DNA of 64,000 nt from Candidatus Omnitrophota bacterium. GTDB lineage: Bacteria > Omnitrophota > Gorgyraeia > Zapsychrales > Zapsychraceae. Of this stretch, positions 44,181 to 60,422 are shown piece by piece. The notes under the pieces were generated by a model. It was not told the origin of the DNA and did not search any database. It saw nothing but the letters and a program-made list of their open reading frames with translations. The translations under genes and the position numbers were made by a program. The stretch is taken from the NCBI GenBank assembly GCA_029261055.1, contig JAJDCA010000068.1, forward strand, positions 69,275-133,274, read 5' to 3'. Each line of letters begins with the position of its first letter. Position 1 is the first letter of the stretch.

Positions 44181-45189
44181 AAGGTAATTCCTTGTAAGAT
44201 TCGTAGACGGATTTTGTTAAATTCCGCACACGTTCCAGCTGTTTACTTCGTTCCGTATCACCATTTGATTTAAGCAGTTGATATCCCGGTTGAAATGGAT
44301 TCAACATAATCATGCACCATTTTAATCCAAAGAGTGGATATAATGATTTGAGCCTACTAAAAAACTTCTCATCTTTACCAAAAATATTTATAAATCCATC
44401 AAACAACGCCTGTTTCTTTTCATCATTCAGATTCATCCCCGGATGTTGAAGGGTGTCAGCAACCAACTTAACCGGATCATCCCATCCGAAGAACTCAAAA
44501 TCGAGAAAATAATAATTATCATCTTTGCATAAAATATTGTGAAAACCAAAATCCACGATGCTTAAAGTTCGCTGTTCAAATGCAATATCTTCATCAAAAT
44601 TTAATCCGCAGCGCTTGTATTCTTCCTGAGCCCATGTAGAAACTTCATTAAATATGGGCATAAAATTTTGATCGATAAATTTATCTAATTGCGGATATTT
44701 ACTTCTCGATGATTCAATGCGATCTAATCGAGTATTAATTTGGTTAACAATGTCATTTCCAGTTAAGGTAGCATCCGTTGCCCGCCTTACTTCACAATCT
44801 TTAGTGCGCAGTGCAATGCCATGAACCTTTTGAATAAACTTCATAACATCATACATTTCTTTGACACCGTACTCATGTACCTTCTCCCCGTCAATCCATT
44901 CCATTAAAACACAATTCCTCCCTTGATCTTTAGCGATGATTTTCGGAGTTGATGTTATTTCGTTCCTAGAAAACAATTCGAGCGCCGTTGTCTCTGCTTC
45001 CCATCTCACCTTTTTTCCATTTTTGTCCGACCTGAAAAATTTAAGAGCATAGGTTTTACCGGCATTCTCTATACGGTAAATGCGGCTATTTCTTCCCCCT
45101 TCTATCCCAACAATATTGATATCCGTAGCTCCGCACATCTCACTTGCTATAATTTTTACTTGTTCAATATTATTTTCTGCACTGCACAT
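44152..45189 (-). CDS. Aminoglycoside-phosphotransferase/choline-kinase-like (APH fold) small-molecule kinase
   Basis: Brenner/HGD-like region IVDFGFHNILCKDDNYYFLDFEFFGWDDP (catalytic and Mg-binding DFE...D motifs of the APH/ChoK fold). 345 aa. Paralog of 59307-60422. Confidence 0.7.
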   Translation of the reverse strand: MCSAENNIEQVKIIASEMCGATDINIVGIEGGRNSRIYRIENAGKTYALKFFRSDKNGKKVRWEAETTALELFSRNEITSTPKIIAKDQGRNCVLMEWIDGEKVHEYGVKEMYDVMKFIQKVHGIALRTKDCEVRRATDATLTGNDIVNQINTRLDRIESSRSKYPQLDKFIDQNFMPIFNEVSTWAQEEYKRCGLNFDEDIAFEQRTLSIVDFGFHNILCKDDNYYFLDFEFFGWDDPVKLVADTLQHPGMNLNDEKKQALFDGFINIFGKDEKFFSRLKSLYPLFGLKWCMIMLNPFQPGYQLLKSNGDTERSKQLERVRNLTKSVYESYKELPYVQCNSRIS

Positions 45190-47946: not shown

Positions 47947-48981
47947 CTAATCCATTGAAATTATAACGCGGCCCGTTTCACCGCTACGGACTGCATCCAA
48001 CGCTTCATTAATTTCGTCTAATTTAAATTCATGTGTAATCAAATCAGCGAGTTTTAATTTTCCGACATTGTATAGCTGAACATACCGTGGAATTTCAATA
48101 TGAGGGTCAGCACTGCCACCATGAGAACCGGTTAAAACTTTCTTAAAATGTAGCGGCAAAGAATAAATGGAAATATCATCACCTTTACGCGGTACGCCAA
48201 CAAGGATTGTCTTTCCGTCAGGACGGGTCATCTGATAAGCCATTTCGATGACCCGTGCATTTCCCGTTGTGTCGATTACTACATCTGCACCCTTATCTCC
48301 GACAATTTTATAAATTTCCTCTTTCCAGGAATCAGAATCCTTTGAATTAAAACAATGCGTTGCCCCAAACTTCTTTGCCGCCTCTAATTTTAAATCAAAA
48401 ACATCTACGCCGATAATCGGATGCGCAGAAACCAATTCTGCAGCTTGAACTAAATTTAAGCCAACCCCTCCGATTCCAATAATTACCACCGATTGTCCAA
48501 TTTTGACATGTGCATCATTATTGATCACACCCATGGCTGTTGTGACCGAACAACCAAATAAAGGGGCCAGCTTCATATCAAAATCATCAGGGATAGGTGT
48601 TAACCGATTTTCTGAAATAATGGCGTGATCGCTAAATGTCGTTACCCAACCGGCATTGACGGTACGACCATCCCATTGATATTTTGGTGGTTCCGATTGT
48701 AAGCCGTCACTCGGCCGCCAGTGCATAACGACATGGTCTCCCTTTTTCACTGTTTTGACTCCAGGGCCAACATTCAAAACAATTCCTGATCCTTCATGCC
48801 CTAACAAATGCGGCAAGAATTTGTCCGGACCTTTGGTTCCCATGATCTCGTTTATCTGCGCCCCACAAATACCGCTGTAAGAAATTTTCACTAAAACCTG
48901 TCCAAATTCCAAAGTTTCTGGCATTTCCAATTCAGCCAGAACTAATGGTTTATTCAACTCAACTAAAACAGCTGCTTTCAT
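47947..48981 (-). CDS. Zinc-dependent medium-chain alcohol/polyol dehydrogenase (MDR family), paralog of 46006-47049
   Basis: SGICGAQINE...LGHEGSGIV; GIGGVGL Rossmann. 344 aa. Confidence 0.85.
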   Translation of the reverse strand: MKAAVLVELNKPLVLAELEMPETLEFGQVLVKISYSGICGAQINEIMGTKGPDKFLPHLLGHEGSGIVLNVGPGVKTVKKGDHVVMHWRPSDGLQSEPPKYQWDGRTVNAGWVTTFSDHAIISENRLTPIPDDFDMKLAPLFGCSVTTAMGVINNDAHVKIGQSVVIIGIGGVGLNLVQAAELVSAHPIIGVDVFDLKLEAAKKFGATHCFNSKDSDSWKEEIYKIVGDKGADVVIDTTGNARVIEMAYQMTRPDGKTILVGVPRKGDDISIYSLPLHFKKVLTGSHGGSADPHIEIPRYVQLYNVGKLKLADLITHEFKLDEINEALDAVRSGETGRVIISMD

Positions 48982-50207
48982 TATTTTTTTCCTCTCATCT
49001 GATGATTTATAACATCGGCAATTTTCTTGGCAACAATACTATTTCCTAAATCTGCCATATGGGCAAAATCAATATAAACTGTTGTATTTTTATCTTTTGA
49101 TTGAAAAATTTTCTGAAGATCATAAAAATCTTCTTGATTCTCTTTTTCCTCTACAATTTTGTATATTTTCTGGTTAAACTCTAACCTTCCTTCCTCCATA
49201 TCCAAAAATTTAACTTCCTCTTCACTTGCAGATAAATGCGCTCCGGCCATAGGTTGCCAAAAAAAGGCAACCTTAAAGCCATATATAGTAGCTAATTTTC
49301 GAACCATGTCTATACTATTAAAATAATGGTCCGCCGTATCCTTTGGAAATGTCAAAAGCTTTTGCTCAAGACGATCCTTATCTGTCACTGGTCCTTCTTT
49401 GAATTTTTCTTCGTCGTCTAATTCGTTCCACTCATTCCATGCTCGCCATTTTCTTCTTAATTTCCTTGTAAATTCATACATGTTTATTCTTGTATCTATA
49501 TAGCCTCTAATAAATTTCTTTAAATAATCCCTATTACTTTTTATTTCAATGTCATGCTTATATCGTTCTCGTTTTGCCGAAAAATCTGCAGCCTCTCCTA
49601 CTCTACTGTTTACGAAACTGGCATGAATATCATTAACGCCATCAAAAAATATAACATAATCTGGAATTTGATTGTTTTTTATAAGCAGCAATAAGGCTAC
49701 CGCTTCCTGAAAAAAACTATAACCTTGTTGTCCGTAATTAACCACATAATATTGTTCTTCCCCATTACCCTTATTTAAGAATTTCGAAATGAAAGATGGT
49801 ATGGTATAATCATCTCTTGCTCCCATTCCCCACAAAACTGAACCGCCAAAACAATATACTGATTTCGCTTTTGATTTATCGATGTCATTAGGATTCCAGG
49901 TGTTACGAATCCCTTCAGAAGAAACATTAATATACTTCCCCTTAAAAGGCCCAGACTTCCATCCTACATATGACTCATACGTAGGGTGCCCCACGGCTAT
50001 GTGCTCTTTAAAATATTCCTCAGCCCAGTTGGTATCCTTATAAACAGAAAGATCCAGTCTTGGCTCTCGCGTCGCTTTTGGACCTGTATATCGAACATGC
50101 ATTATTATACGATTCGTAACATCAAAAATTATCATAAGAATTATTATACAAAAAACTAAATACCCGATATATTCAAATACCCCTTTTAACTTGGAAAACT
50201 TTTTCAC
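48981..50207 (-). CDS. Membrane-anchored SGNH-like protein (DltD/AlgJ/AlgX-like partner of MBOAT acyltransferase)
   Basis: N-terminal TM anchor (YIGYLVFCIIILMIIF) followed by a ~380-aa extracytoplasmic domain with SGNH-like blocks (VYCFGGSVLWG; FFDGVNDIH). Sits immediately downstream of the MBOAT gene. Confidence 0.5.
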   Translation of the reverse strand: MKKFSKLKGVFEYIGYLVFCIIILMIIFDVTNRIIMHVRYTGPKATREPRLDLSVYKDTNWAEEYFKEHIAVGHPTYESYVGWKSGPFKGKYINVSSEGIRNTWNPNDIDKSKAKSVYCFGGSVLWGMGARDDYTIPSFISKFLNKGNGEEQYYVVNYGQQGYSFFQEAVALLLLIKNNQIPDYVIFFDGVNDIHASFVNSRVGEAADFSAKRERYKHDIEIKSNRDYLKKFIRGYIDTRINMYEFTRKLRRKWRAWNEWNELDDEEKFKEGPVTDKDRLEQKLLTFPKDTADHYFNSIDMVRKLATIYGFKVAFFWQPMAGAHLSASEEEVKFLDMEEGRLEFNQKIYKIVEEKENQEDFYDLQKIFQSKDKNTTVYIDFAHMADLGNSIVAKKIADVINHQMRGKK

Positions 50208-50232
50208 GGTTTTCTCCTCTTTAGAATTAGCC

Positions 50233-51675
50233 TTAAAATTGAAAATAAATAAATGGTGTTTCTAATTTAAAACGTCCGAAAATTAAAAAACAAAATAGTG
50301 TACTATAATAAAAAAAACATTGCAGCCATAACGGTTTCTGAAATAGCCAAACCCTGACAGCTATACGTCTTTGCCCCAGATGGATAAGTTCCATAAAAAT
50401 AATAGCAACAAGTGCTACAATAATTTCATTAATTTCCAGGCCTAAATCATATGTCATGAATTGAAATTTAATATTTGTAAACAAATGTGTCAAAATATAC
50501 ATTGCATCACTTAAAGAGTTAGCCCTAAAAAATATAAGGGTAAAACACCAAAATCCAAATGTTAATCCCATTGCAGTGGTATTAAATATTAACGAAGGCA
50601 CCCTTTCTTCTAACCTCTTTATGGGTTTCTTCATCACAACCTCCAAAGATACAGCTACCCCGTGTAGCAGCCCAAATATGACAAAATTCCATGCAGCCCC
50701 ATGCCACAATCCACAAAGAAAAAAAGTTAATGTTAAAGAACAAAGCAGCCCCCATTGTCCCAAATGCCGTGTTTGTATAAGTAAGGGCGTATAAAGATAA
50801 TCATTAAGCCATGTTGACAAAGAAATGTGCCATCGCCGCCAAAAATCTGACATAGATTTTGCCATATACGGAAAATTAAAATTCTTCATAAGCCGATACC
50901 CCATAACTTCGGCTGCCCCAATAGCGATGTCTGAATAACCAGAAAAATCACAATAAACTTGAAAAGCAAAAAGAATCGTCGCAATGATTAATGGAGCCCC
51001 TGTAAAGTCGTGCGCATTATTATAAACTTGATTGACCAGCACTCCGACACGATCAGCGATAACTATCTTTTTTAAAAATCCCCAAGCCATTAAAAGCAAG
51101 CCGCTTTTAACCCTTTGATAATCGAAGCGTTGCTCCTTATAAAATTGAGGTAAAAGATGTGTGGATCGCTCAATCGGTCCGGCAACTAGCTGTGGGAAAA
51201 ACGTCACATACAAAGCAAATATTCCCAAATGTTTTTCTGGTTTCTGATTTCCTCGATAAACTTCAATGGTATAACTTAAAGTTTGAAACGTATAAAATGA
51301 TATTCCAATAGGCAAAAGAATCTCAAATGCGGGGACATTGTAAAAAATATTAAAATGATTGAAAAGAACTCTTGCCGAGTCATTGAAAAAATTAAAATAT
51401 TTAAATGCAAATAAAATTCCAAGATTAGATACTAAACTTAAAATCAAAAATTTCTTACGTTTTACTTTTTCAATTGTTTTCCCCATTTGAAAGCCGGCAT
51501 AATAGTCGATGATTGTCGAAACCATAATCAACAACACATATTCCGGCTTCCAACACATATAAAAATAATAGCTGGCACCTAATAAAAGAATCCATCGAAA
51601 CCTATGTGGTATTAAAAAATAAGCGAAAACAACACAAGGAAAAAACAAAAGAAATTGTAAAGAATTAAATAACAT
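50233..51675 (-). CDS. MBOAT family membrane-bound O-acyltransferase (AlgI/DltB-like)
   Basis: MLFNSLQFLLFFPCVVFAYFLIP... polytopic protein with the conserved MBOAT His-containing core (RRWHISLSTWLNDYLYTPL; LWHG). 480 aa. Confidence 0.9.
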   Translation of the reverse strand: MLFNSLQFLLFFPCVVFAYFLIPHRFRWILLLGASYYFYMCWKPEYVLLIMVSTIIDYYAGFQMGKTIEKVKRKKFLILSLVSNLGILFAFKYFNFFNDSARVLFNHFNIFYNVPAFEILLPIGISFYTFQTLSYTIEVYRGNQKPEKHLGIFALYVTFFPQLVAGPIERSTHLLPQFYKEQRFDYQRVKSGLLLMAWGFLKKIVIADRVGVLVNQVYNNAHDFTGAPLIIATILFAFQVYCDFSGYSDIAIGAAEVMGYRLMKNFNFPYMAKSMSDFWRRWHISLSTWLNDYLYTPLLIQTRHLGQWGLLCSLTLTFFLCGLWHGAAWNFVIFGLLHGVAVSLEVVMKKPIKRLEERVPSLIFNTTAMGLTFGFWCFTLIFFRANSLSDAMYILTHLFTNIKFQFMTYDLGLEINEIIVALVAIIFMELIHLGQRRIAVRVWLFQKPLWLQCFFYYSTLFCFLIFGRFKLETPFIYFQF

Positions 51676-51696
51676 TTTTAAATTTGATCAGATTAT

Positions 51697-52977
51697 TTAT
51701 CTAATAATAGTAGTAATTTTCTTAGCAAGCTCTTCAGAATAAATACGATTCCCTTTTTCATTAAAATGAGGATCATTAAAAAGATGCAAAAAGTCTTTAT
51801 TTTTCTTCTGAACAACAGGAGTACTATCTAAATAATGAATTTTTAGTTGTGCCGCCCAGTTTCGTAAAGTTTTCGTATTATCCTCGTGCCGTGTTGTAGA
51901 AACTTCGCAGGAATGTTCATGGCCATCATTAAAAGGAAAATTTTCTTTTAGAACATTTGAACAATATTCCTCATCCTGGCCATAAACTACACTCACACTT
52001 GGAATATACGATAATAAAATGATTGATTCAGGACTTACTTCTCTAATATCATTGACAACTTTTGAAAACTCCACAAATGTCTTAGAAAGGTCATCGGAAG
52101 TCATTTCAGTTTCCAATGGCACAGGCGGGAAAAAATGAGCCAGAACCTGACGAAACACTGTTCTGAATATTGACATAAGCTCTCCATATCGTGAAAATTT
52201 TCTCTCCGGCCATGTTAATGTATTTGAGACATCCTTTAAGTGGGCAGGAATGCCGGGCGTATATTCAGCTGTAGCGACTGTAGTAAACCCACCATGAAAA
52301 TTCAAAACCACTATTTTCGGATCATCTTTAAAATAAGTTGAATTTACATAACGCTTAAATTGCAAACCCCAATGAGGAATACCTTGTCCTCCAATACCTA
52401 AGGAATATATTTTAAACGGATCCAAAAACTCTCGAAGATACTCTGTTATAGTTACTGTTGATGATCCTGAAATAAAAGAAGACCCTAAAAGAACAACATC
52501 CATTTTTTCATTATCACTAATGTATCCGGGTAAATTCCTATAACCGAATTCATCATTGATAGAAATATAGCTTGGGTTATTACTACTTGGATTATAAAAC
52601 CAAATATTCCCATCATACATATAAACAGGTTTTTCCTTGTGCGTAAGCTTATATTTAGCTTGCGCATCTTTCGATAGTTTTTTTGTAACTATATTTTTAG
52701 GCAGCCACGGGCTGCCCCAATATAACAAATTATCCACTAATAATCCCAAAGGAAGCAACACTATTAAATTAATAATTATAATTAAACTAATCTGGCGACT
52801 AAATAAACCAACGATTACCACACACACACCAACCCCTATCATTAACCACTGAGCCGGACCAAAAAAATCTTTCGGCCCATCACTAATTCCAAGATCCGCA
52901 GCAAATACTGCAATTAGAACCAATAACACTCCGAATATAATTACACACCCTGATAATAAATATTTCTTATAAACCAC
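51697..52977 (-). CDS. Membrane-anchored SGNH-like protein (second DltD/AlgJ-like partner)
   Basis: Two N-terminal TM helices, then an extracytoplasmic domain with VVLLGSSFISGSS (block I-like) and a late DPHFN (DxxH) motif. 426 aa. Confidence 0.5.
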   Translation of the reverse strand: MVYKKYLLSGCVIIFGVLLVLIAVFAADLGISDGPKDFFGPAQWLMIGVGVCVVIVGLFSRQISLIIIINLIVLLPLGLLVDNLLYWGSPWLPKNIVTKKLSKDAQAKYKLTHKEKPVYMYDGNIWFYNPSSNNPSYISINDEFGYRNLPGYISDNEKMDVVLLGSSFISGSSTVTITEYLREFLDPFKIYSLGIGGQGIPHWGLQFKRYVNSTYFKDDPKIVVLNFHGGFTTVATAEYTPGIPAHLKDVSNTLTWPERKFSRYGELMSIFRTVFRQVLAHFFPPVPLETEMTSDDLSKTFVEFSKVVNDIREVSPESIILLSYIPSVSVVYGQDEEYCSNVLKENFPFNDGHEHSCEVSTTRHEDNTKTLRNWAAQLKIHYLDSTPVVQKKNKDFLHLFNDPHFNEKGNRIYSEELAKKITTIIR

Positions 52978-53002
52978 TACTTGTTCCTTTTTTTAGCAGC
53001 CT

Positions 53003-53722
53003 CTAAATAACATCGGCAGCTGAGTTCATTATTAAATTAATACCATTAATCTGTTGAGATGACTTTATGAGAAAACTGACGGATTCAGCGACTTCATCAG
53101 GAGTTAATAATTTCTTTAGCGGATGGTTACCAATCATGCTTTCAATTACACGCTCATCAGTATCACACGTAAAATGTGTTTTCATAAAAGAAGGTGAAAT
53201 GCAGTTGGCTGTAATATTAAAATGGGCGTTTTCTTTTGCCCAGGATTTACTTAATGAAGCTAGATAGGCCTTATTGGCCACATATTCAGACCAACCTATG
53301 GGGGGCGAATTAAGACAAGCGGAGCTAAGAATGGTTATAATTTTACCAAATTCTTTCTTCCTGAATTGGGTGATAGCTTCTTGAGTAATTTTAATTACAG
53401 GCATAATATTATTTTGAAATTTTTTTTCAAAAACATCAGCTTCCATTTTATGAAAGTGATTCTTCGTCATCCCGGTGGACGCATTATGAATTAAGCCATC
53501 CAGATCAAAATCCTTCATTTGATCAATGAGCGAATTTAGGCTATGGATATCTTCAAAGTTACATTGAATAGATTTTGTGTTAGAATTTTCTTTTTCTATT
53601 GTACGAGCCTTTTCTACAGAAGAATTATACGTAAAAAAAATTTTATTGGATTGTTCGCAAGATAATTTTCGTGTAATTTTTTCACCTAATCCCGAGGCCC
53701 CTCCGGTAATTAAAATATTCAT
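53003..53722 (-). CDS. SDR family oxidoreductase
   Basis: MNILITGGASGLGEKIT motif; YVANKAY (YxxxK). 239 aa. Confidence 0.8.
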   Translation of the reverse strand: MNILITGGASGLGEKITRKLSCEQSNKIFFTYNSSVEKARTIEKENSNTKSIQCNFEDIHSLNSLIDQMKDFDLDGLIHNASTGMTKNHFHKMEADVFEKKFQNNIMPVIKITQEAITQFRKKEFGKIITILSSACLNSPPIGWSEYVANKAYLASLSKSWAKENAHFNITANCISPSFMKTHFTCDTDERVIESMIGNHPLKKLLTPDEVAESVSFLIKSSQQINGINLIMNSAADVI

Positions 53723-53789
53723 TAGATGACTCCTATCTGGATATTTCCGTCTGCCATTTTCTGATTAACTTCATATTGATCCCCCTTAT

Positions 53790-54035
53790 TCATTCGTTGC
53801 TCTGGATCCTTTTTTTAATAGCGACACACATCTCTCCCACATTTCTAAAGCTTTGGATTTCAGCTGATGTAAATCGAATATTAAAATGTTTTTCTATTCC
53901 CACAACGATTTGAATATTATTAAGCGAATCCCAGGCTTTAATGTCATTGACCGTCGTTGAGTCTTCGAGGATAATATTCTTCTCTTCAAGAACATTAATA
54001 AATATAGTGTTGACTTGATTTAATACGTCTGTCAT
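53790..54035 (-). CDS. Acyl carrier protein
   Basis: 81 aa, acidic. IKAWDSLNNIQIV contains the DSL phosphopantetheine-attachment motif at the usual position. Confidence 0.7.
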   Translation of the reverse strand: MTDVLNQVNTIFINVLEEKNIILEDSTTVNDIKAWDSLNNIQIVVGIEKHFNIRFTSAEIQSFRNVGEMCVAIKKRIQSNE

Positions 54036-54049
54036 AAAATAGTCCCTCC

Positions 54050-54979
54050 TTAAGTATGTTTAATTTTTAAAAATGCTCCATAAAGTTCAGTTATTTTGAG
54101 TCTTTCGGCCTTTTCTTTTGGAACATCTTCTGCATAAAAGTTTATGAACTTAACTACTTCTAATCCTGCCTGATCAATCATATTTTCAATTTCTTGTATA
54201 TTATGAAATAAATAAATGTGGTCTATCGTTGGAGCATTCGTGGGGGTTGTCATGAATATATGCCCATCATCCGATAACAACTCTTTTGCTTTAGAAAGTA
54301 ATGCTGCAGGATCCTCAAGATGTTCCAGTATTTCACCCATGGTAATAAAATCATAGGTCTGATCAAGTGGAAACGTTAAAACATCTTGTACAATGTATCG
54401 AATTTTAGGCTTATTAATAAAACTCTTGGAAATTTCCACAGCTGTGGGACTAATATCAACTAAATCAAAACAGACATCATTTTCGAGAATATTAATGGCC
54501 TCTGCAATATATAAACCATGTCCTCCACCTATTTCAAGATAATTTTTAGTATTCTTATTGAATTTTGAAAAAGAATCTATAAAAAACGAAAGCATTTTGT
54601 AATGATGGCTCCATAAAAATTGAGAAAGAAGTAAACCATGCATGTAATACTCCATCACATTAGGATTGTTGTAAACTCGTTGATTAACTTCATCAAATGA
54701 TTTGCTCGAATATTCGCCTGTTCGTACAAATTGTATCTGTTCATAGTTTATATCTGCTATCATTTTGAGATAACATTCCATTCCATAATGGATGTCATTA
54801 CCTTGCTGTTTTAACAATTGAATGTATTTATTAAAGAACTTATTGGCCCTTTCCGTGTCTTGATTAGTAAAAGATTGTATATTCTTGCGAATTTTTTTTG
54901 CATGTAAGGGGTCTTTTGATTCAAGAATAGAAACAATTTGTTGAAGATAATTTTGCACTAATTCTCCTTTATATAACAA
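54050..54979 (-). CDS. Class I SAM-dependent methyltransferase
   Basis: YLEIGGGHGLYIAE (motif I), DLVDIS (post I), FITMGEILEH (motif II/III). 309 aa. Confidence 0.65.
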   Translation of the reverse strand: MLYKGELVQNYLQQIVSILESKDPLHAKKIRKNIQSFTNQDTERANKFFNKYIQLLKQQGNDIHYGMECYLKMIADINYEQIQFVRTGEYSSKSFDEVNQRVYNNPNVMEYYMHGLLLSQFLWSHHYKMLSFFIDSFSKFNKNTKNYLEIGGGHGLYIAEAINILENDVCFDLVDISPTAVEISKSFINKPKIRYIVQDVLTFPLDQTYDFITMGEILEHLEDPAALLSKAKELLSDDGHIFMTTPTNAPTIDHIYLFHNIQEIENMIDQAGLEVVKFINFYAEDVPKEKAERLKITELYGAFLKIKHT

Positions 54980-56673
54980 TTACGAGGCTTAAATTCTTTA
55001 ACGTCTAAATACCAAAAATCATCATTTTTTTTAAAACCAAGGTCTTGAAAAAGAGGCTGCACTAAATTATTTTTAGCAGTAGCGATGCATTCTCCGACGA
55101 TTCGTTGAATATTATATTCTTTCGAAACGGCCATTATTTTATTTAAAACAAAATATTCAACTGTCCTTTTTATCACCCTGCAGCTCATAATCCATGTGTC
55201 AATGAAGAAAGTATTATCTCTTTTTTCTAATATGATAATGCTAATTAATCCATAATCTCCAAATTTATCCTGTAGATTAAAAACAAGGGTCATAAAATTA
55301 TCGGATTCAGATATCCTTTTGATGTCTTGTTCCGTATATCGAATCGTTCTTAAATTAAATTGATTAGATCTTTGAGTTAATTGAGCCACTCTGGGAATAT
55401 TAAATTCATTAAATTCACATACTGAAGAAATCATTCTTAAATTTAAAAGATATTCATCAATATTCGTAAATGAAACTTCTTCAACTTTTCGTTTTTCCTC
55501 CTGTTGATACTGTTGAGTACGATTTTTATCACTTTGTGAATAAGAGGATGTTTCAAACATGTTTAAAGAACTAAGGCACTCTACATATTCAGCAGGATCT
55601 TCGGGTAATTCAGGCACCATTAGTTCTGGAATATGTTTTTTAACGAGATCGCGCTCAAATGGATTGTCATCAATAAAGACCATCGAATCGAACCCTATAT
55701 TTAACACACTCTGAATATGTTTAATATTGTCAATTTTATTGTTCCAATTGGCCACAAAGATTGCAATATCGTCTAGGCGAAGTATCATCTCAGGATGTTT
55801 TAAAAAAGGTTCTTTGGCAATCTTTTCATCATTCTTGCTACAAATGGCCAAGAGTATTCCCCGCTGTTTTAATTGCTTAACCCACCATTGCAGTTCAGAA
55901 AAAGCTTTACCAATACCTAAATCACCTATTTCGATGTTCGCCAAACCATCATCGCCAATGACTCCCCCCCACAATGTATTATCCAAATCCAGTATCAAAC
56001 ATTTTTTAATCTTACCCATTAAGGATTGAATAATATCAAGCGTGTTTTTTGCTATCAAAGGAAGAAAATCCATGCTAAACACCATATCGGCATTAACATA
56101 GTTTCTTGCATCAAAAATAAACTTATGGCCGTACTGATTTTGTAAAGCGCAGACATCATTAATAAAAAAATTGTCTAAGTTTCGACACATATTCATTAAT
56201 TCAACATTAAATTTTCTTACTTGAAATAGGAAAGAGGCGGACACCTTATTGGAATAATTTCCGAAAATATTATCATTGGGTTCTAAAAGATTAAAACAGA
56301 TTATTTTGGCGGGAAGTTTTGTATTAATCGCTGCCACGAGTCCGGTGATTTTTTTTATTTCGTCATCGGCAAAATTGGATTTATCCTGAGTATTAAGTTT
56401 ATAAAAAGTATTTTTTAATTTTTGACTAGATTTAAAGATGACAATATATTCTGGTTTAAAAGAATATAATTTTGATGATGTATCTAAAATCTCACTTTCG
56501 ATTTGATCATATTCAGCTTCATAAATTTGACAATTGATTTGAACTTCATATCCATACCCTTTGAGAGCTTGAACGAACAGTTGTGTTGCGGTGTCTCCTA
56601 ATAGAGCAACTTTTACAAGTTTAGATTTTGAAAAATCTTTTCTTAAATTTTTTTTTAAATCTAGTAAATTCAT
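54958..56673 (-). CDS. FkbH-like protein: HAD-IIIC phosphatase-like domain + C-terminal GNAT-like acyltransferase domain (glyceryl-ACP loading enzyme family)
   Basis: CLILDLDNTLWGGVIGDDGLANIEIG...LKQRGILLAICSKNDEKIA is the FkbH/HAD-IIIC core. C-terminal GNAT-like block (LVFNLQDKFGDYGLISIII). 571 aa. Confidence 0.7.
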   Translation of the reverse strand: MNLLDLKKNLRKDFSKSKLVKVALLGDTATQLFVQALKGYGYEVQINCQIYEAEYDQIESEILDTSSKLYSFKPEYIVIFKSSQKLKNTFYKLNTQDKSNFADDEIKKITGLVAAINTKLPAKIICFNLLEPNDNIFGNYSNKVSASFLFQVRKFNVELMNMCRNLDNFFINDVCALQNQYGHKFIFDARNYVNADMVFSMDFLPLIAKNTLDIIQSLMGKIKKCLILDLDNTLWGGVIGDDGLANIEIGDLGIGKAFSELQWWVKQLKQRGILLAICSKNDEKIAKEPFLKHPEMILRLDDIAIFVANWNNKIDNIKHIQSVLNIGFDSMVFIDDNPFERDLVKKHIPELMVPELPEDPAEYVECLSSLNMFETSSYSQSDKNRTQQYQQEEKRKVEEVSFTNIDEYLLNLRMISSVCEFNEFNIPRVAQLTQRSNQFNLRTIRYTEQDIKRISESDNFMTLVFNLQDKFGDYGLISIIILEKRDNTFFIDTWIMSCRVIKRTVEYFVLNKIMAVSKEYNIQRIVGECIATAKNNLVQPLFQDLGFKKNDDFWYLDVKEFKPRNCYIKEN

Positions 56674-56857: not shown

Positions 56858-57520
56858 TTATTCAAAATATATAAATTCATAATCACCGGTATATCCGAAA
56901 TGCTCATAGAGCCAAATCCATTCATCTTTATCAAAGAACGATTCACACGTCAAAGCCCAACACTGCAAATTAAACTGTTCTAATTCGTTTCTATAACTCT
57001 CCAGCATAATATATTTATTTTTGCCGACACGTTCGACTTCTTTGACCGCTGTTTCTAACTCAAAAATGCGTAGGTTATGAAAACAGCCCAATGTGATGAC
57101 CAAATCGAAATAATTATCCTCAAAAGGATATGGGTCTTGGGCCTTTTGAATGCGCAAACAATCACGGACTTCTTGGGGTGCATCGGCAACTCCATGTTTG
57201 GAAATGTCAAATCCCACAATTTCCGCCTTCGGGAGCAGTTTTTTAAATTCACTCATTAAATGCGCCTTACCGCATCCCACATCAAGAATTTTTGCATCCT
57301 CTTTAAGGTCATAAATTTCGATAAATTTCTGGGCAACTACTTTCCAGCGTCCATCATATTTATATCCACCGTATCCATAGCGCCGGTCACCATCCCAATA
57401 ATCAGATTCATATTCTTTAGCTTTGAGCATGCAATGGACTTTTTCATCCACCATGCGGTCAATATAGGCTCTCTTTGTTTGCGTGTGTAAAGGTGTGACG
57501 ATTTCGAGTAACTTACTCAT
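56858..57520 (-). CDS. Class I SAM-dependent methyltransferase
   Basis: ILDVGCGKAHLMSEF (motif I), VGFDIS (post I), DLVITLGCFHNL (motif II/III). 220 aa. Confidence 0.7.
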   Translation of the reverse strand: MSKLLEIVTPLHTQTKRAYIDRMVDEKVHCMLKAKEYESDYWDGDRRYGYGGYKYDGRWKVVAQKFIEIYDLKEDAKILDVGCGKAHLMSEFKKLLPKAEIVGFDISKHGVADAPQEVRDCLRIQKAQDPYPFEDNYFDLVITLGCFHNLRIFELETAVKEVERVGKNKYIMLESYRNELEQFNLQCWALTCESFFDKDEWIWLYEHFGYTGDYEFIYFE

Positions 57521-57542: not shown

Positions 57543-58487
57543 TTATGCCCCTAGTTTAATCTGTGCCCCTCGCGCCTCTTTGATGGACGCAACTAAATTC
57601 TCTTCGGTGATCCCATAATGCTTCAATTGATCATTTTGAGAACCGTATATATCGGGAAAAACATCCGGAATGCCGATCCTCTTAAAATTTTTAGGTGCTT
57701 CAAAATTTGCTTCCGCAACGATCTCAGCAACTGCACTGCCTAAACCCCCAATCGTGGAATGCTCCTCAATAACTACGATTATGGGTATTCGTTCACAATA
57801 GTTCAATATAGTTTCCGTATCTAGCGGTTTGATCGTATGATTATGCAGGATTGTCGTTTCAATCCCTTCCGCACTAAGCAACTCGGCTGCCTTTTGTGCA
57901 ATGCCAAGCGTGATCCCTGTTGTAATGACAACGGCATCTTCACCCTCTCTCGCTACGATCGCCTTGCCTATTTCAAAAGAATTGTCATCAGAAGTCACAA
58001 TAGGGTCATATCCTTTAGCCATTCGGATATAAATCGGTCCAGGATAATCTACAGTTTGGGGCATTAACCGACGCATCTCATCGGCATCGGCTACCGCAAT
58101 AACAGTCATATTCGGAATAGAGCGCATAATTGCGATATCGTCAATTGCCAAATGCGTCGGTCCCAGCGGGGCATACACTAAACCACCTCCATTGGCAATC
58201 AAACGAATATTGGCCTTATGCAGACAGGCGTCGAGAACAACTTGCTCAAAGCAGCGCCGTGAAAGAAATGTTGCGATCGTATTCACATAAACAATCTTGC
58301 CTTCTATCGCTAAACCGCATCCTATCCCGACCAAATTTGCCTCACTGACACCTTCCATAAAAAATCGTTCCGGGATATTCTCTTTAAACTCTTTTAAAGT
58401 TTCAAAACTAAGATCTGACCCAATAAAAAAAATGCGTTCATCTTTTTGCGCAAGTTCATACACTGCGTTAAGGCATGTTTTACGCAT
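57543..58487 (-). CDS. Transketolase, C-terminal section (second split-transketolase pair)
   Basis: RLIANGGGLVYAPLGPTHLAIDDIAIMRSIPNMTVIAVADADE; paralog of 42373-43338. Its start overlaps the stop of the N-terminal subunit gene by 1 nt. Confidence 0.9.
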   Translation of the reverse strand: MRKTCLNAVYELAQKDERIFFIGSDLSFETLKEFKENIPERFFMEGVSEANLVGIGCGLAIEGKIVYVNTIATFLSRRCFEQVVLDACLHKANIRLIANGGGLVYAPLGPTHLAIDDIAIMRSIPNMTVIAVADADEMRRLMPQTVDYPGPIYIRMAKGYDPIVTSDDNSFEIGKAIVAREGEDAVVITTGITLGIAQKAAELLSAEGIETTILHNHTIKPLDTETILNYCERIPIIVVIEEHSTIGGLGSAVAEIVAEANFEAPKNFKRIGIPDVFPDIYGSQNDQLKHYGITEENLVASIKEARGAQIKLGA

Positions 58488-59323
58488 TAAGCAATCTCCA
58501 ATTCTTTCAAAAGTCCTGAAATATCTTCATCTGTTAGATTGCTGACGTGATGCCATTGTAAATTGTTTTCAGCATAACTAATCCCTTTTCCCTTCACTGT
58601 ATGACAAATAATCGCATTAGGCTTATCAGATTCAAAGGGAAGTTCTAATAATGTTGATTTTAATGCTTTAACATCATGACCATCGACTTCTCGCGTTGCA
58701 AATCCAAACGCCTTCCATTTATCGGCAAAAGGCTCAAGATCTAAAACTTCGTGAGTAGAAGCATACGACTGATGCTTATTGTAATCAATCATAACCGTAA
58801 GGTTCTTTAACTTATGTTTTCCGGCGCATAATGCAGCTTCCCAAACTGAGCCTTCATTACATTCTCCATCACCGACAATAACAATCGTTCGATAATCAGC
58901 TTTTTCATAACGAGCATTTAAAGCCATTCCAATACCCAAAGATAAACCGTGCCCTAAACTCCCCGTCGAAACTTCAATACCGGCAACCTTATGTTCCGGA
59001 TGACCGCCTAAAATGCCGTCAACTTTACAAAACTTCCATAATTCTGATTCGGGTATAAATCCCTTTTCCGCAAGCATCACATAAAGAGCAATACAGCCAT
59101 GCCCTTTACTTAAAATACATCGATCACGATGAAACCATTCAGGATTTTTTGAATCAAACGTAAGAATATCGTCGTAAAGAACGCGTAATATTTCAATAAC
59201 CGAAAGTGACGCCCCAATATGCCCTCTTCCTCCGGCCTCCAATGTTTTAACAATCATTTTCCTTAAATCTTTTGATCTTTGATCTAATCCCACGTTAATC
59301 TCTCCATTACAATAATGTGTCAT
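58487..59323 (-). CDS. Transketolase, N-terminal TPP-binding section (second pair)
   Basis: GHIGASLSVIEILRVLY...VGDGECNEGSVWEAALCAGKHKLKNLTVMIDYNKHQ; paralog of 43338-44180. Confidence 0.9.
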   Translation of the reverse strand: MTHYCNGEINVGLDQRSKDLRKMIVKTLEAGGRGHIGASLSVIEILRVLYDDILTFDSKNPEWFHRDRCILSKGHGCIALYVMLAEKGFIPESELWKFCKVDGILGGHPEHKVAGIEVSTGSLGHGLSLGIGMALNARYEKADYRTIVIVGDGECNEGSVWEAALCAGKHKLKNLTVMIDYNKHQSYASTHEVLDLEPFADKWKAFGFATREVDGHDVKALKSTLLELPFESDKPNAIICHTVKGKGISYAENNLQWHHVSNLTDEDISGLLKELEIA

Positions 59324-60422
59324 AAGGAAACTTGCTGTATGTATCTTTCATCGTCACAAGCATATTTTTGGCTTTTAAAAGCTGCTTTTTAAGAATGTTG
59401 TTTTTGCTTAAAGTTTCTATTTGCGCAAAATGACGCCGTTGAAAATCCCCTGGTATAAATTCGTTCAAAAAAATAAGACACCATTTCAGGCCAAAGAAAG
59501 GATAGGTAACTTTGATCCTATCCTTTAATCGTTCACATTCCTTAAATAATTTAAGTCCGCTTGTTACAAACTGTTGCTTAAGATTTCGATCAAGCATCAT
59601 CGCTGGATGAAGTAAAAAATCTGAAATAGTTTTAGCTGGATCATCCCATCCAAAATGTTCAAAATCCAAGAAGACAATACGCCCGCTCTTATCTCTGAGA
59701 GCATTATGAAAACCAAAATCCGATGGGCTCAATATCTTCTCTCTCTCACTTATACTTTCATCAAATGATATCCTGGAATCTGAAAGCCTCTTCTTTGCCC
59801 ACTGTATTAATATTTCCCAAAATGGAATGAACTCGCAGTCTAAATAATTCCTAAGGACTTCGTATTCTTCTCCAGGCTCCTTAACTTCCTTAAGCCGGTT
59901 TACCCTCGCTTGAATATTATCATTAATTTCCTGGACTGAAAAAAAAGCTTCCGAAGCTACACGCGGAAAATCTGCATCGACACCCCTTAACCTTTTCAAG
60001 TCTGCCAGAAACTCAAGTGCGCAGACGATATCTTGACTTTTAATTTCTTCAGGAGAAATTTTTTTTCCTTCAATAAATGTATAAATAGCACAATTTCCAT
60101 CTTTATCCATAGTGATCGGCTGTGGAATAGATCTGAGGCCGTTATTCCAAAGAAAACTCAAGCTTGAAAACTCAACCGTAAGCCGGTCTCTTGTATTAGC
60201 GGCATCACAGTAATAAAATTTTAAGACATATTTTACATTATCAACTGATTTAATTTGATAAACACGACTATTAAGCCCTCCTCCAATTCTTTTGGAATCA
60301 GTTATTGGCATTGAAAGCAGCCGACAAGCGATACTTTTGACATCAGCATCCTCGAGGCTTTTTTTATTTTGCAAAGAAATAGCCATAAATATCTTTCCAT
60401 TCCCTGAAGGCTTTGACATCAT
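59307..60422 (-). CDS. APH/choline-kinase-like small-molecule kinase (paralog of 44152-45189)
   Basis: LSPSDFGFHNALRDKSGRIVFLDFEHFGWDDP catalytic region aligns with the first kinase; 371 aa. Confidence 0.7.
   Translation of the reverse strand: MMSKPSGNGKIFMAISLQNKKSLEDADVKSIACRLLSMPITDSKRIGGGLNSRVYQIKSVDNVKYVLKFYYCDAANTRDRLTVEFSSLSFLWNNGLRSIPQPITMDKDGNCAIYTFIEGKKISPEEIKSQDIVCALEFLADLKRLRGVDADFPRVASEAFFSVQEINDNIQARVNRLKEVKEPGEEYEVLRNYLDCEFIPFWEILIQWAKKRLSDSRISFDESISEREKILSPSDFGFHNALRDKSGRIVFLDFEHFGWDDPAKTISDFLLHPAMMLDRNLKQQFVTSGLKLFKECERLKDRIKVTYPFFGLKWCLIFLNEFIPGDFQRRHFAQIETLSKNNILKKQLLKAKNMLVTMKDTYSKFPYDTLL

What the first reader, a model, noticed from the sequence alone, without database searches (positions are those of the whole stretch)
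48981..56673. Carrier-protein-dependent MBOAT acylation module (FkbH loader - ACP - MBOAT - two DltD/AlgJ-like SGNH proteins)
In transcription order: FkbH-like HAD/GNAT enzyme, MTase, acyl carrier protein, SDR, SGNH membrane protein, MBOAT, SGNH membrane protein. FkbH proteins are known to load a glycerate-derived unit onto a dedicated ACP. MBOAT (DltB) plus a carrier protein (DltC) plus an SGNH-like DltD is the logic of D-alanylation of teichoic acids. The composition here suggests an analogous trans-membrane transfer of an ACP-bound glyceryl/hydroxyacyl group, possibly reduced and methylated by the SDR and MTases, onto the surface glycan. This would differ from acetyl-type AlgI/AlgJ O-acetylation. 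Such an FkbH-ACP-MBOAT combination looks non-canonical.
Basis: inference. Interest (0 to 1): 0.7.

Follow-up and report, generated by a model that had tools for sequence, protein, structure and literature searches.

The report
Carrier-protein-fed MBOAT glycan acylation cassette
Seven tightly packed genes inside a large surface-sugar gene cluster look like a machine that builds a small glycerate-derived acid on a carrier protein and passes it through a membrane enzyme onto a cell-surface sugar polymer; until now the only such carrier-protein route known in bacteria was the D-alanine (Dlt) system.

Summary
On the minus strand, 56673 to 48981 encodes an FkbH-type loader, a SAM methyltransferase, an 81-aa ACP (Ser37 in WDSL), a FabG-like SDR, a 3-TM SGNH protein, an MBOAT and a 1-TM SGNH protein. 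The genes are tightly packed and form a low-GC island. (1) In 80 related FkbH loci from many phyla, an ACP directly follows FkbH in 58. MBOAT genes start at about 0.25 per kb within 2 kb downstream, against 0.02 per kb or less at 3-10 kb. (2) ACP-linked MBOATs, including this one, replace the usual Y-I-P-L-G-G-N-R segment before the catalytic His with Y-T-P-L-x-I-x-x-R. That segment aligns to DltB helix HC, where DltC docks. (3) The window's MBOAT has this signature although its nearest relatives (55-58% identity) are GG-type and lack an ACP. Three corrections apply. The MBOAT has PatA/AlgI architecture, with a fused C-terminal FIYFQF shuttle, not DltB+DltX. The SGNH proteins are generic SGNH folds, not specifically DltD/AlgJ-like. 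Only one methyltransferase belongs to the cassette. This copy also shows wear: the MaoC dehydratase gene is reduced to a 23-codon remnant, and the 426-aa SGNH protein has lost its block III Asn. I found no published description.

The parts
54958..56673 (-). FkbH-like loader (571 aa): FkbH_N domain, HAD-IIIC phosphatase domain (DLDNT, D229/D231), and a C-terminal FkbH domain with invariant Cys498 (MSCRV)
   Evidence: Pfam FkbH_N 234 bits. NCBIfam TIGR01686 309 bits, above the 147 cut-off. PDB 3SLR BF1531 E 4e-129 over residues 5-381. Invariant residues in alignment A1.
54050..54958 (-). SAM-dependent methyltransferase (302 aa from the ATG; the start overlaps the FkbH stop by 1 nt)
   Evidence: Methyltransf_23 65 bits; weak UbiG/BioC/NodS hits. 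The gene call is 302 aa. Homologues (40-52% identity) occupy the same cassette position in about 20 loci.
53790..54035 (-). Dedicated acyl carrier protein (81 aa), phosphopantetheine site Ser37 in WDSL
   Evidence: PP-binding 22.5 bits (cut-off 20.8). W35-D36-S37 is invariant in cassette ACPs. Best PDB match 2LML, 'putative ACP', E 3e-25. FAS ACPs score 1e-8 to 1e-3; DltC scores only 0.017.
53722..53793 (-). Remnant of a MaoC-like dehydratase gene: 23-codon mini-ORF MNKGDQYEVNQKMADGNIQIGVI*. It keeps the N- and C-termini and both translational-coupling overlaps (ATGA with the ACP stop, TAATG with the SDR start).
   Evidence: tblastn and direct comparison with 30 cassette MaoC proteins (for example L009: MKKGDQFSHQF...QKLAKGRIQIGII). 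The family was identified as MaoC_dehydratas, 64 bits.
53003..53722 (-). FabG-like short-chain dehydrogenase/ketoreductase (239 aa)
   Evidence: adh_short 109 bits; 3-oxoacyl-ACP reductase models 125 bits, below cut-off. It is 50-63% identical to cassette SDRs, which elsewhere nearly always follow a MaoC gene. TGGASG and Y147xxxK151 are present.
51697..52977 (-). Membrane-anchored (3 TM) periplasmic SGNH protein (426 aa). Ser167 and His404 are kept. Block I is GSS instead of GDS. Block III GND is replaced by GFT.
50233..51675 (-). MBOAT (480 aa): catalytic His325, C-terminal acyl-shuttle motif FIYFQF (Tyr477), and non-GG 'YTPLLIQTRH' segment at the position of DltB helix HC
   Evidence: Pfam MBOAT 82 bits. 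NCBIfam DltB 159 bits, below the 375 cut-off. Alignment to DltB 6BUG/8JEM. C-terminal motif. Signature analysis. DltC docking residues from PMC11035591.
48981..50207 (-). Membrane-anchored (1 TM) SGNH protein (408 aa) with all catalytic blocks (Ser123, G-x-N192-D, D380-x-x-H383). Membership in the module is probable but not certain.
   Evidence: AlphaFold pLDDT 78.7, best match CgnD 8A2N. Profile E 4e-12 to CgnD. Same low GC as the cassette. A homologue sits beside an FkbH-MT-ACP-VOC-MBOAT cassette in L048. Other homologues lie in non-MBOAT contexts (L168, L169).

Best explanation
This is a carrier-protein-dependent MBOAT-SGNH system for O-acylation of a surface glycan.

Proposed steps (all inferred):
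1. The FkbH-like enzyme takes a glycolytic C3 unit, 1,3-bisphosphoglycerate by analogy, and loads it as glyceryl thioester onto Ser37-phosphopantetheine of the dedicated ACP.
2. The methyltransferase O-methylates the unit while it is on the ACP. The SDR may modify it further. In ancestral cassettes a MaoC dehydratase plus this SDR would convert glyceryl to a lactyl-type unit, but the dehydratase is deleted here. The likeliest product is therefore an O-methylglyceroyl group.
3. The acyl-ACP docks on the cytoplasmic face of the MBOAT, at the helix-HC-like segment YTPLLIQTRH.
4. His325 catalyses transfer of the acyl group to Tyr477 in the fused C-terminal FIYFQF shuttle on the periplasmic side.
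5. A membrane-anchored SGNH protein takes the acyl group on its Ser (the 426-aa partner, the catalytically complete 408-aa protein, or both) and esterifies a hydroxyl of the glycan made by the surrounding locus.

What is shown: gene content, motifs, folds, synteny statistics and the sequence signature. What is inferred: substrate identity, acyl-ACP use by the MBOAT, the order of the SGNH steps, and the acceptor.
For: Domains and motifs are.

Synteny:
- A 56%-identical MBOAT sits in a self-contained FkbH-MT-ACP-VOC-MBOAT-partner operon with no other transferase.
- In 80 FkbH loci from Bacteroidota, Ignavibacteria, Planctomycetota, Omnitrophota, Bdellovibrionota, Clostridia and Verrucomicrobiota, the ACP directly follows FkbH in 58.
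- MBOAT starts are 0.25 per kb in the first 2 kb downstream (37 loci, all on the same strand), against 0.02 per kb or less at 3-10 kb.
- Minimal FkbH-ACP-MBOAT-partner cassettes exist.

Sequence signature:
- 57 of 66 ACP/FkbH-linked MBOATs lack the PLGG(N/S)R segment, against 9 of 77 unlinked ones (Fisher p 2e-20). At clade level the counts are 11/15 against 6/29 (p 0.001).
- The window and L002 carry the linked states at the top discriminating columns, which were learned without them (R303, F334, K353, the insertion at 300, T296, G309). Their nearest relatives are all GG-type.
- This segment aligns to DltB M302-K312. That region is helix HC, which contacts DltC Met36/Val39/Glu40 (PMC11035591).
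- Annotated DltBs also lack GG there.
- ACP-linked MBOATs with loaders other than FkbH (L011, L158, L164) are also non-GG.

Mechanism and chemistry precedents:
- The FxYxxF shuttle mechanism comes from PMC12148441.
- FkbH chemistry comes from PMC7489565.
- FkbH-MT-carrier modules give O-methylglycerate (PMC10143770).
- A di-O-methylglyceroyl sugar occurs in C. jejuni, whose flagellar glycosylation locus holds an FkbH-domain gene.
Against: - The window MBOAT's closest relatives (53-58% identity) stand in MBOAT+SGNH pairs with no ACP nearby.
- At least 7 FkbH-ACP cassettes have no MBOAT. Some carry a KAS III-like enzyme instead, so the ACP product can be used by other transferases.
- Nine linked MBOATs are GG-type.
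- The locus also encodes NeuB, CMP-transferases and aminotransferases. A cytoplasmic N-acylation of a nonulosonic acid, as in C. jejuni, is therefore conceivable.
- The MaoC gene is deleted and the 426-aa SGNH protein has lost its block III Asn. The cassette may be altered or decaying.
- Homologues of the 408-aa protein occur without an MBOAT.
- I did not verify that characterised acetyl-CoA users (PatA, AlgI) carry PLGG.
- There is no structure of the ACP-MBOAT complex and no biochemistry.
Confidence: 0.62

Rival explanations
1. There are two independent modules that merely sit side by side. FkbH-MT-ACP-SDR make an O-methylglyceroyl (or related) thioester that a cytoplasmic transferase elsewhere in the locus attaches to a nucleotide sugar, for example N-acylation of a nonulosonic acid as in C. 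jejuni. The MBOAT and SGNH proteins are an ordinary acetyl-CoA-dependent O-acetylation pair.
For: - Nearest MBOAT relatives are stand-alone MBOAT+SGNH pairs.
- The MBOAT has PatA/AlgI architecture with a fused FxYxxF motif. PatA uses acetyl-CoA (PMC12148441).
- FkbH-ACP cassettes without an MBOAT exist, some with a KAS III-like enzyme.
- The window holds NeuB, two CMP-type cytidylyltransferases, DegT aminotransferases and a hexapeptide transferase.
- In C. jejuni the di-O-methylglyceroyl group is amide-linked on CMP-Pse.
Against: - The MBOAT enrichment immediately next to FkbH-ACP is 12- to 50-fold over the same loci's own flanks, and all downstream cases are co-directional.
- Minimal four-gene cassettes hold no other transferase.
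- The docking-helix signature separates ACP-linked from unlinked MBOATs and is present in the window.
- The whole seven-gene block is a single compositional island.
Confidence: 0.18
2. The cassette was acquired horizontally and is now partly decayed in this genome. It either does nothing or makes a simplified product through a crippled relay.
For: - An in-frame deletion of about 106 codons in MaoC leaves a 23-codon remnant.
- The 426-aa SGNH protein is the only one of 24 family members with GSS/GFT instead of GDS/GND.
- The block is a low-GC island.
Against: - All other genes are full length with catalytic motifs intact.
- The deletion is in frame and preserves both coupling overlaps, so downstream translation is kept.
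- A catalytically complete second SGNH protein is present.
- Cassettes without MaoC or SDR are common and presumably functional.
Confidence: 0.12
3. The system is carrier-protein dependent as proposed, but the acceptor is not the locus glycan. It could be another envelope molecule such as peptidoglycan, a lipid or a protein.
For: No acceptor-specific domain was found in either SGNH protein. Homologues of the 408-aa family occur in non-glycan contexts, such as CgnD in a peptide pathway and a carbamoyltransferase/SxtJ cluster.
Against: The cassette is embedded in a 64-kb co-directional glycan locus. Related cassettes sit among glycosyltransferases, flippases and sugar-nucleotide enzymes.
Confidence: 0.06

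Closest known systems
Dlt teichoic acid D-alanylation system (DltA, DltC, DltB, DltX, DltD)
   Same: A small carrier protein bearing an acyl thioester on phosphopantetheine sits next to an MBOAT and membrane-anchored SGNH protein(s). The MBOAT segment that aligns to the DltC docking helix HC lacks the Gly-Gly found in ACP-less relatives. The catalytic His is conserved.
   Different: - There is no DltA-type adenylating ligase; the loader is an FkbH/HAD enzyme.
- The carrier is an ACP-type protein, not a DltC-type one.
- The MBOAT scores 159 against a 375-bit DltB cut-off.
- The MBOAT carries the FxYxxF shuttle fused at its own C-terminus, rather than on a DltX microprotein.
- The cargo is a hydroxy acid, not D-alanine.
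- The hosts are mostly Gram-negative lineages, and the acceptor is presumably a polysaccharide.
PatA/PatB, AlgI/AlgJ/AlgX and WssH-type MBOAT-SGNH O-acetylation systems
   Same: The MBOAT architecture is the same: extra C-terminal helices ending in FxYxxF, and a catalytic His. The partner is a periplasmic SGNH protein on a TM anchor. Overall sequence similarity is highest to this group. The Tyr-shuttle mechanism is taken from PMC12148441.
   Different: Those systems are described as lacking a carrier protein and using acyl-CoA (PMC12148441). Here a dedicated ACP and its loader are in the operon, and the PLGG(N/S)R segment is replaced. The SGNH proteins belong to different, small families: 71 representatives at 50% identity clustering for the 426-aa protein and 14 hits for the 408-aa protein.
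FkbH/ACP 'glycerate utilisation' modules of polyketide and non-ribosomal peptide pathways (tetronates, methoxymalonyl-ACP, AerB OMT-FkbH-PCP)
   Same: An FkbH-type HAD enzyme sits with a stand-alone ACP. There is optional O-methyltransferase and oxidoreductase tailoring of the ACP-bound C3 unit.
   Different: The downstream user is not a PKS, an NRPS or a FabH-like tetronate synthase. It is an MBOAT that would export the unit to the cell surface. The tailoring enzymes are an SDR, MaoC or VOC rather than FkbK/FkbI types.
Campylobacter jejuni flagellin glycan with a 2,3-di-O-methylglyceroyl group (locus with the FkbH-domain gene cj1302)
   Same: A glycerate-derived, O-methylated acyl decoration of a surface glycan is encoded in a glycosylation locus that holds an FkbH-domain gene. 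The window also encodes a nonulosonic acid pathway.
   Different: In C. jejuni the group is amide-linked on the CMP-sugar, that is, added in the cytoplasm. No MBOAT is implicated there. From memory, not checked here, that locus has FabH-like and ACP genes instead.

Membership tests
Dlt D-alanylation system | DltA-type adenylating D-alanine-carrier protein ligase | tested here: not met
   No AMP-binding domain appears in any of the seven genes or their neighbours (Pfam scans). The loader is FkbH/HAD-IIIC.
Dlt D-alanylation system | DltB equivalog MBOAT | tested here: not met
   NCBIfam TIGR04091 scores 158.8 bits against a cut-off of 375. The protein is 480 aa with two extra C-terminal helices.
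Dlt D-alanylation system | DltC-type carrier protein | tested here: not met
   The cassette ACP profile hits DltC (6BUG_A) at only E 0.017, against 6e-8 for FAS-type ACPs and 3e-25 for 2LML.
Dlt D-alanylation system | Separate DltX microprotein carrying the FxYxxF shuttle | tested here: not met
   The motif FIYFQF is fused to the MBOAT C-terminus. Annotated DltBs lack it.
Bacterial MBOAT-SGNH polymer O-acyltransferases (PatAB/AlgIJX type) | MBOAT with a conserved catalytic His | tested here: met
   Pfam MBOAT scores 82 bits (cut-off 27). His325 aligns with DltB His336.
Bacterial MBOAT-SGNH polymer O-acyltransferases (PatAB/AlgIJX type) | C-terminal FxYxxF acyl-shuttle motif on the MBOAT | tested here: met
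   The protein ends in FIYFQF (Tyr477). The motif is present in 135 of 146 related MBOATs examined. The motif definition comes from PMC12148441.
Bacterial MBOAT-SGNH polymer O-acyltransferases (PatAB/AlgIJX type) | Adjacent membrane-anchored extracytoplasmic SGNH protein with a Ser-His(-Asp) triad and oxyanion residues | tested here: met
   Both flanking proteins are SGNH folds behind N-terminal TM helices. The 408-aa protein has all blocks. The 426-aa protein keeps Ser167 and His404 but lacks the block III Asn.
Bacterial MBOAT-SGNH polymer O-acyltransferases (PatAB/AlgIJX type) | Acyl-CoA donor with no carrier protein | not testable with these tools
   The donor cannot be determined in silico. 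Synteny and the docking-segment signature argue for an ACP donor.
FkbH family glyceryl-ACP loaders | HAD-IIIC domain with DxDxT, plus the FkbH C-terminal domain, scoring above the family threshold | tested here: met
   TIGR01686 scores 309 bits (cut-off 147). TIGR01681 scores 65 bits (cut-off 36). D229-L-D231-N-T is present.
FkbH family glyceryl-ACP loaders | Conserved active-site Cys for the acyl-enzyme intermediate | tested here: met
   Cys498 in MSCRV is invariant in 20 homologues. That this Cys is the catalytic one rests on my memory of the OzmB/FkbH literature, not on a test here.
FkbH family glyceryl-ACP loaders | Dedicated stand-alone ACP encoded nearby | tested here: met
   The ACP lies one gene downstream here. 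It directly follows FkbH in 58 of 80 related loci.
FkbH family glyceryl-ACP loaders | Uses 1,3-bisphosphoglycerate to form glyceryl-S-ACP | not testable with these tools
   This is inferred from family membership (PMC7489565).
Acyl carrier proteins | PP-binding fold with Ser in the DSL motif | tested here: met
   PF00550 scores 22.5 bits (cut-off 20.8). Ser37 in WDSL is invariant in the family. No PPTase gene was found in the window.

The most novel reading that the evidence does not exclude
FkbH-ACP-MBOAT-SGNH cassettes are a second, widespread class of carrier-protein-dependent envelope acylation systems. The FkbH loader family was seen in at least 565 species-representative genomes, and about two thirds of the 80 loci inspected carry an adjacent MBOAT. 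These systems would install glycerate-derived hydroxyacyl esters (glyceroyl, O-methylglyceroyl, lactyl-type) on surface polysaccharides. A short segment before the catalytic His would predict donor type across bacterial MBOATs: PLGG(N/S)R for presumed acyl-CoA users, and a helix-HC-like hydrophobic-x-x-Arg segment for carrier-protein users.
Probability: 0.5. Interest if true: 0.82.

Novelty: new variant of a known kind. Interest (0 to 1): 0.72.

Why it matters
A 2025 mechanistic paper on bacterial MBOAT-SGNH pairs (PMC12148441) states that pathways other than Dlt lack a carrier protein because they use acyl-CoA. If the cassette works as proposed, four things follow.
- That generalisation would be wrong for a large, phylogenetically broad group of Gram-negative and other bacteria.
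- Surface glycans would carry ester-linked hydroxy acids that are easily lost in standard structural work and may shape antigenicity, phage recognition and charge.
- A simple sequence signature would predict the donor type of uncharacterised MBOATs.
- The modular variants (plain, +MT/VOC, +MaoC/SDR) would be a natural toolkit of small-acid decorations.

Each step is directly testable with the assays already developed for Dlt and PatAB.

Tried and rejected
- **Literature.** I searched FkbH+DltB, FkbH+O-antigen, FkbH+Leptospira, BF1531, and MBOAT+ACP+SGNH. No description of this cassette turned up. FkbH+MBOAT returned only aeruginosin-type papers.
- **An ACP-specific MBOAT clade.** I expected the window MBOAT to fall in one, and it does not. 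Among its 80 closest metagenomic relatives only about 7 have an ACP, FkbH, MaoC or KAS III nearby. This led to the column-by-column signature test instead.
- **Direct similarity of the two SGNH proteins.** Pairwise searches against each other and against cassette partner proteins found nothing. Only profile-profile comparison links them.
- **The upstream methyltransferase 56858-57520 as a cassette member.** There are no homologues in related loci and its GC differs.
- **Promoter and terminator scan of the region.** Nothing exceeded the shuffled expectation.
- **Organism identity.** It was not recovered. The cluster look-up gave no names. The weak hit to a Leptospira SGNH family (E 1e-3) is not enough, and L. 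interrogans plasmid/replicon MBOATs are only 36% identical.
- **PPTase in the window.** None was found.
- **Support for the glyceryl-to-lactyl (DH-KR-FkbH) precedent.** One paper I read did not contain it. That precedent rests on my memory.

Full report
**1. What is there**

The window is one long co-directional (minus-strand) gene array. The finding covers seven consecutive genes.

| Coordinates | Product | Evidence |
|---|---|---|
| 54958-56673 | FkbH-like protein | FkbH_N 234 bits; TIGR01686 309 bits against a cut-off of 147; HAD-IIIC. The DLDNT motif and Cys498 are invariant. The N-terminal two thirds match the structural-genomics entry 3SLR, 'uncharacterized protein BF1531', at E 4e-129. 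|
| 54050-54958 | Class I SAM methyltransferase | Its ATG overlaps the FkbH stop by one base. |
| 53790-54035 | 81-aa ACP | Passes the Pfam threshold. Carries Ser37 in W-D-S-L, invariant in 64 related ACPs. |
| 53003-53722 | FabG-like SDR | Intact cofactor and catalytic motifs. |
| 50233-51675 | MBOAT | His325 aligns with the catalytic His336 of DltB. |
| 51697-52977 (426 aa) and 48981-50207 (408 aa) | SGNH proteins | Score below Pfam cut-offs. AlphaFold models (pLDDT 90.8 and 78.7) are clear SGNH folds behind three and one N-terminal transmembrane helices, with positive-inside N-termini. The catalytic domains should therefore be periplasmic. |

Intergenic gaps are 25 nt or less, or the genes overlap. 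All seven genes have GC 0.31-0.345, while the flanking genes have 0.36-0.455.

**2. Surroundings**

The rest of the window encodes sugar-nucleotide chemistry:
- three DegT aminotransferases;
- C- and O-methyltransferases;
- WbqC;
- NeuB and two CMP-type cytidylyltransferases;
- a carbamoyltransferase;
- split transketolase pairs with APH-type kinases on both sides of the cassette;
- Zn-dependent dehydrogenases;
- a fused ABC exporter.

The cassette therefore sits in a surface-glycan locus. No PPTase gene is present. The organism could not be named.

**3. Is the combination meaningful?**

*A self-contained operon elsewhere.* A 56%-identical MBOAT in another genome lies in a tight, self-contained operon: FkbH-MT-ACP-VOC-MBOAT-partner.

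*Recurrence across phyla.* A scan of one genome per species with an FkbH alignment found at least 565 loci. I analysed the best 80, from at least seven phyla, with my own ORF calling and family clustering. An ACP directly follows FkbH in 58 of the 80.

*Positional enrichment.* MBOAT genes start at about 0.25 per kb in the first 2 kb downstream (37 loci, all on the same strand). There are 10 more within 1 kb upstream. At 3-10 kb in the same loci the rate is 0.02 per kb or less. That internal control rules out mere co-residence in polysaccharide loci.

*Cassette variants.* The cassette is modular:
- FkbH-ACP-MBOAT-partner;
- with a MaoC-like dehydratase and the SDR;
- with the methyltransferase and a Glyoxalase_4/VOC protein.

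MBOAT-less versions also exist. Some carry a KAS III-like enzyme instead.

**4. The MBOAT**

*Overall similarity.* By overall similarity the window's MBOAT is not in an ACP-specific clade. Its nearest relatives (53-58% identity) are MBOAT+SGNH pairs with no ACP.

*Architecture.* It ends in FIYFQF. This is the FxYxxF acyl-shuttle motif that PatA auto-acetylates on Tyr and that the Dlt system carries on the separate microprotein DltX (PMC12148441). Architecturally it is therefore PatA/AlgI-like, not DltB-like.

*Sequence signature.* I looked for alignment columns that separate ACP-linked from unlinked MBOATs, training without the window and its L002 relative. The top columns cluster just before the catalytic His.
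- Unlinked enzymes read D-Y-L-Y-I-P-L-G-G-N-R ... W-G.
- Linked ones read D-Y-V-F-T-P-L-S-I-x-F-R-D ... F-G, with two extra residues.
- The window reads Y-T-P-L-L-I-Q-T-R-H ... F-G and so carries the linked states.

*Counts.* 57 of 66 linked MBOATs are non-GG, and 68 of 77 unlinked ones are GG (Fisher p 2e-20). After collapsing to maximal clades on a rough NJ tree, 11 of 15 non-GG clades contain linked members, against 6 of 29 GG clades (p 0.001). Several exceptions are explained. Some are a second MBOAT in the locus, where the one adjacent to FkbH/ACP is the non-GG copy (L022, L053, L079). Others lie on truncated contigs. ACP-linked MBOATs whose loader is not FkbH (L011, L158, L164) are also non-GG, so the signature tracks the carrier rather than the cargo.

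*Mapping to DltB.* In the HMMER alignment to DltB, this segment corresponds to M302-K312. This is the horizontal helix HC, on which DltC sits: Met302, Val305, Ile306 and Met309 contact DltC Met36 and Val39, and Lys312 forms a salt bridge (PMC11035591). Annotated DltBs also have an uninterrupted hydrophobic-then-basic segment there and no Gly-Gly.

This is independent, structure-informed support for ACP docking. I did not verify that PatA or AlgI themselves carry PLGG.

**5. The SGNH proteins**

*The 426-aa protein.* It belongs to a small family (71 representatives). By profile-profile comparison this family is homologous to the canonical gene found downstream of cassette MBOATs (96% probability). 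One member lies directly downstream of an MBOAT that is 58% identical to the window's. The window copy alone among 24 family members has GSS for GDS and GFT for GND. It keeps the nucleophile Ser167 and His404 but has lost the block III oxyanion Asn.

*The 408-aa protein.* It has all SGNH blocks but only 14 detectable homologues. One sits beside an FkbH-MT-ACP-VOC-MBOAT cassette (L048). Another lies between a kinase and a transketolase pair. A third is in a carbamoyltransferase-SxtJ-DUF5989 cluster. Its best structural match is CgnD. Its membership in the relay is probable, given position and GC, but unproven.

Neither protein is specifically DltD- or AlgJ-like.

**6. A deletion**

The 67-nt spacer between the ACP and the SDR holds a 23-codon mini-ORF, MNKGDQYEVNQKMADGNIQIGVI*. 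Its ends match the N- and C-termini of the cassette MaoC dehydratases. It keeps the ATGA overlap with the ACP stop and the TAATG overlap with the SDR start. The window's cassette therefore descends from an FkbH-MT-ACP-MaoC-SDR type (as in L008 and L041) by an in-frame loss of about 106 codons.

Elsewhere MaoC plus SDR would plausibly turn glyceryl-ACP into a lactyl-type unit. This parallels the DH-KR-FkbH-ACP loading module proposed for bryostatin, which I cite from memory. Here that route is broken. The likeliest cargo is therefore an O-methylglyceroyl group, and the SDR's role is unclear.

**7. Mechanism and rivals**

The best explanation (confidence about 0.6) has five steps:
1. FkbH loads a glycerate unit on the ACP (PMC7489565).
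2. The methyltransferase modifies it. FkbH-MT-carrier modules give O-methylglycerate (PMC10143770).
3. The acyl-ACP docks on the HC-like segment.
4. His325 moves the acyl group to Tyr477.
5. An SGNH Ser passes it to a glycan hydroxyl.

The main rival (about 0.18) is that the two halves are independent. In that case the ACP product would go to a cytoplasmic N-acylation, as in the C. jejuni di-O-methylglyceroyl-pseudaminic acid, and the MBOAT would simply acetylate. A decayed cassette (about 0.12) and a non-glycan acceptor (about 0.06) are also possible.

**8. Comparison and novelty**

The system works like Dlt in using a carrier protein with an MBOAT and SGNH proteins. It fails every membership test for Dlt: no DltA, no DltC-type carrier, below the DltB cut-off, and no DltX.

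It meets the structural tests for the PatAB/AlgI-type MBOAT-SGNH family. It differs in having a dedicated carrier and loader, and in the docking segment. The 2025 mechanistic paper states that other MBOAT/SGNH pathways lack a carrier protein. My literature searches found no description of FkbH-ACP-MBOAT cassettes.

I rate it a new variant of a known kind. It is widespread and directly testable.

Noticed in passing
window 53722-53793 (-): A 23-codon mini-ORF between the ACP and the SDR is the remnant of a MaoC-like dehydratase gene. An in-frame internal deletion removed about 106 codons. The N- and C-termini and both translational-coupling overlaps are retained.
   Followed up: yes
window 51697-52977 (-): The 426-aa SGNH protein is the only one of 24 family members with GSS instead of GDS (block I) and GFT instead of GND (block III). 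The oxyanion Asn is lost, while Ser167 and His404 remain.
   Followed up: yes
window 48981-56673: The seven cassette genes form a low-GC island (0.31-0.345, against 0.36-0.455 in the flanks). The island lies between two similar sugar-pathway sets (APH kinase plus a split transketolase pair at 57543-60422 and at 42373-45189), which suggests insertion as a unit.
   Followed up: partly
window 11741-13573 (-); L169 5717-10327: The window has a NodU/CmcH-type carbamoyltransferase far from the cassette. A 38%-identical homologue of the 408-aa SGNH protein lies in a carbamoyltransferase-MTase-SxtJ-SGNH-DUF5989 cluster. The closest solved structure to the 408-aa family is CgnD, from the crocagin pathway.
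   Followed up: partly
window 20339-21370, 16799-17566, 9963-10799 (-): NeuB-type synthase and two CMP-type cytidylyltransferases are present. The locus therefore also makes nonulosonic and/or Kdo-like acids, a possible alternative target for a glycerate-derived acyl group.
   Followed up: no
L017 6227-7114; L039 3759-4604: In two Bacteroidota loci the cassette ACP is fused to a hexapeptide-repeat (LbH) acyltransferase-like domain directly upstream of the MBOAT. That MBOAT is of the GG (PLGGNR) type.
   Followed up: no
L046, L047, L066, L075 (about 12000-13200): Flavobacteriaceae loci have FkbH-ACP followed by a KAS III/FabH-like protein instead of an MBOAT. This recalls the FabH-like users of glyceryl-ACP in tetronate pathways.
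   Followed up: partly
L011 16773-18468; L164/L165 4891-9398; L158, L159: ACP-MBOAT pairs occur with other or no visible loaders: a second ACP-MBOAT-partner unit, ACP-KASIII-KASIII-SDR divergent from an MBOAT, and ACP-MaoC-MBOAT. Their MBOATs also lack the PLGG segment, which hints at further cargo types.
   Followed up: partly
L044, L047, L050, L060, L062, L075, L087: A family of about 400 aa (f11) recurs in FkbH loci, several of them without an MBOAT. It gives a weak hit (E 2.5e-7 in a small database) to the 426-aa SGNH family profile.
   Followed up: no
window 2459-3379 and 3581-4678 (-): A radical SAM/SPASM protein and a 3-dehydroquinate-synthase-like protein lie at the downstream end of the glycan locus. 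Their function there is unexplained.
   Followed up: no
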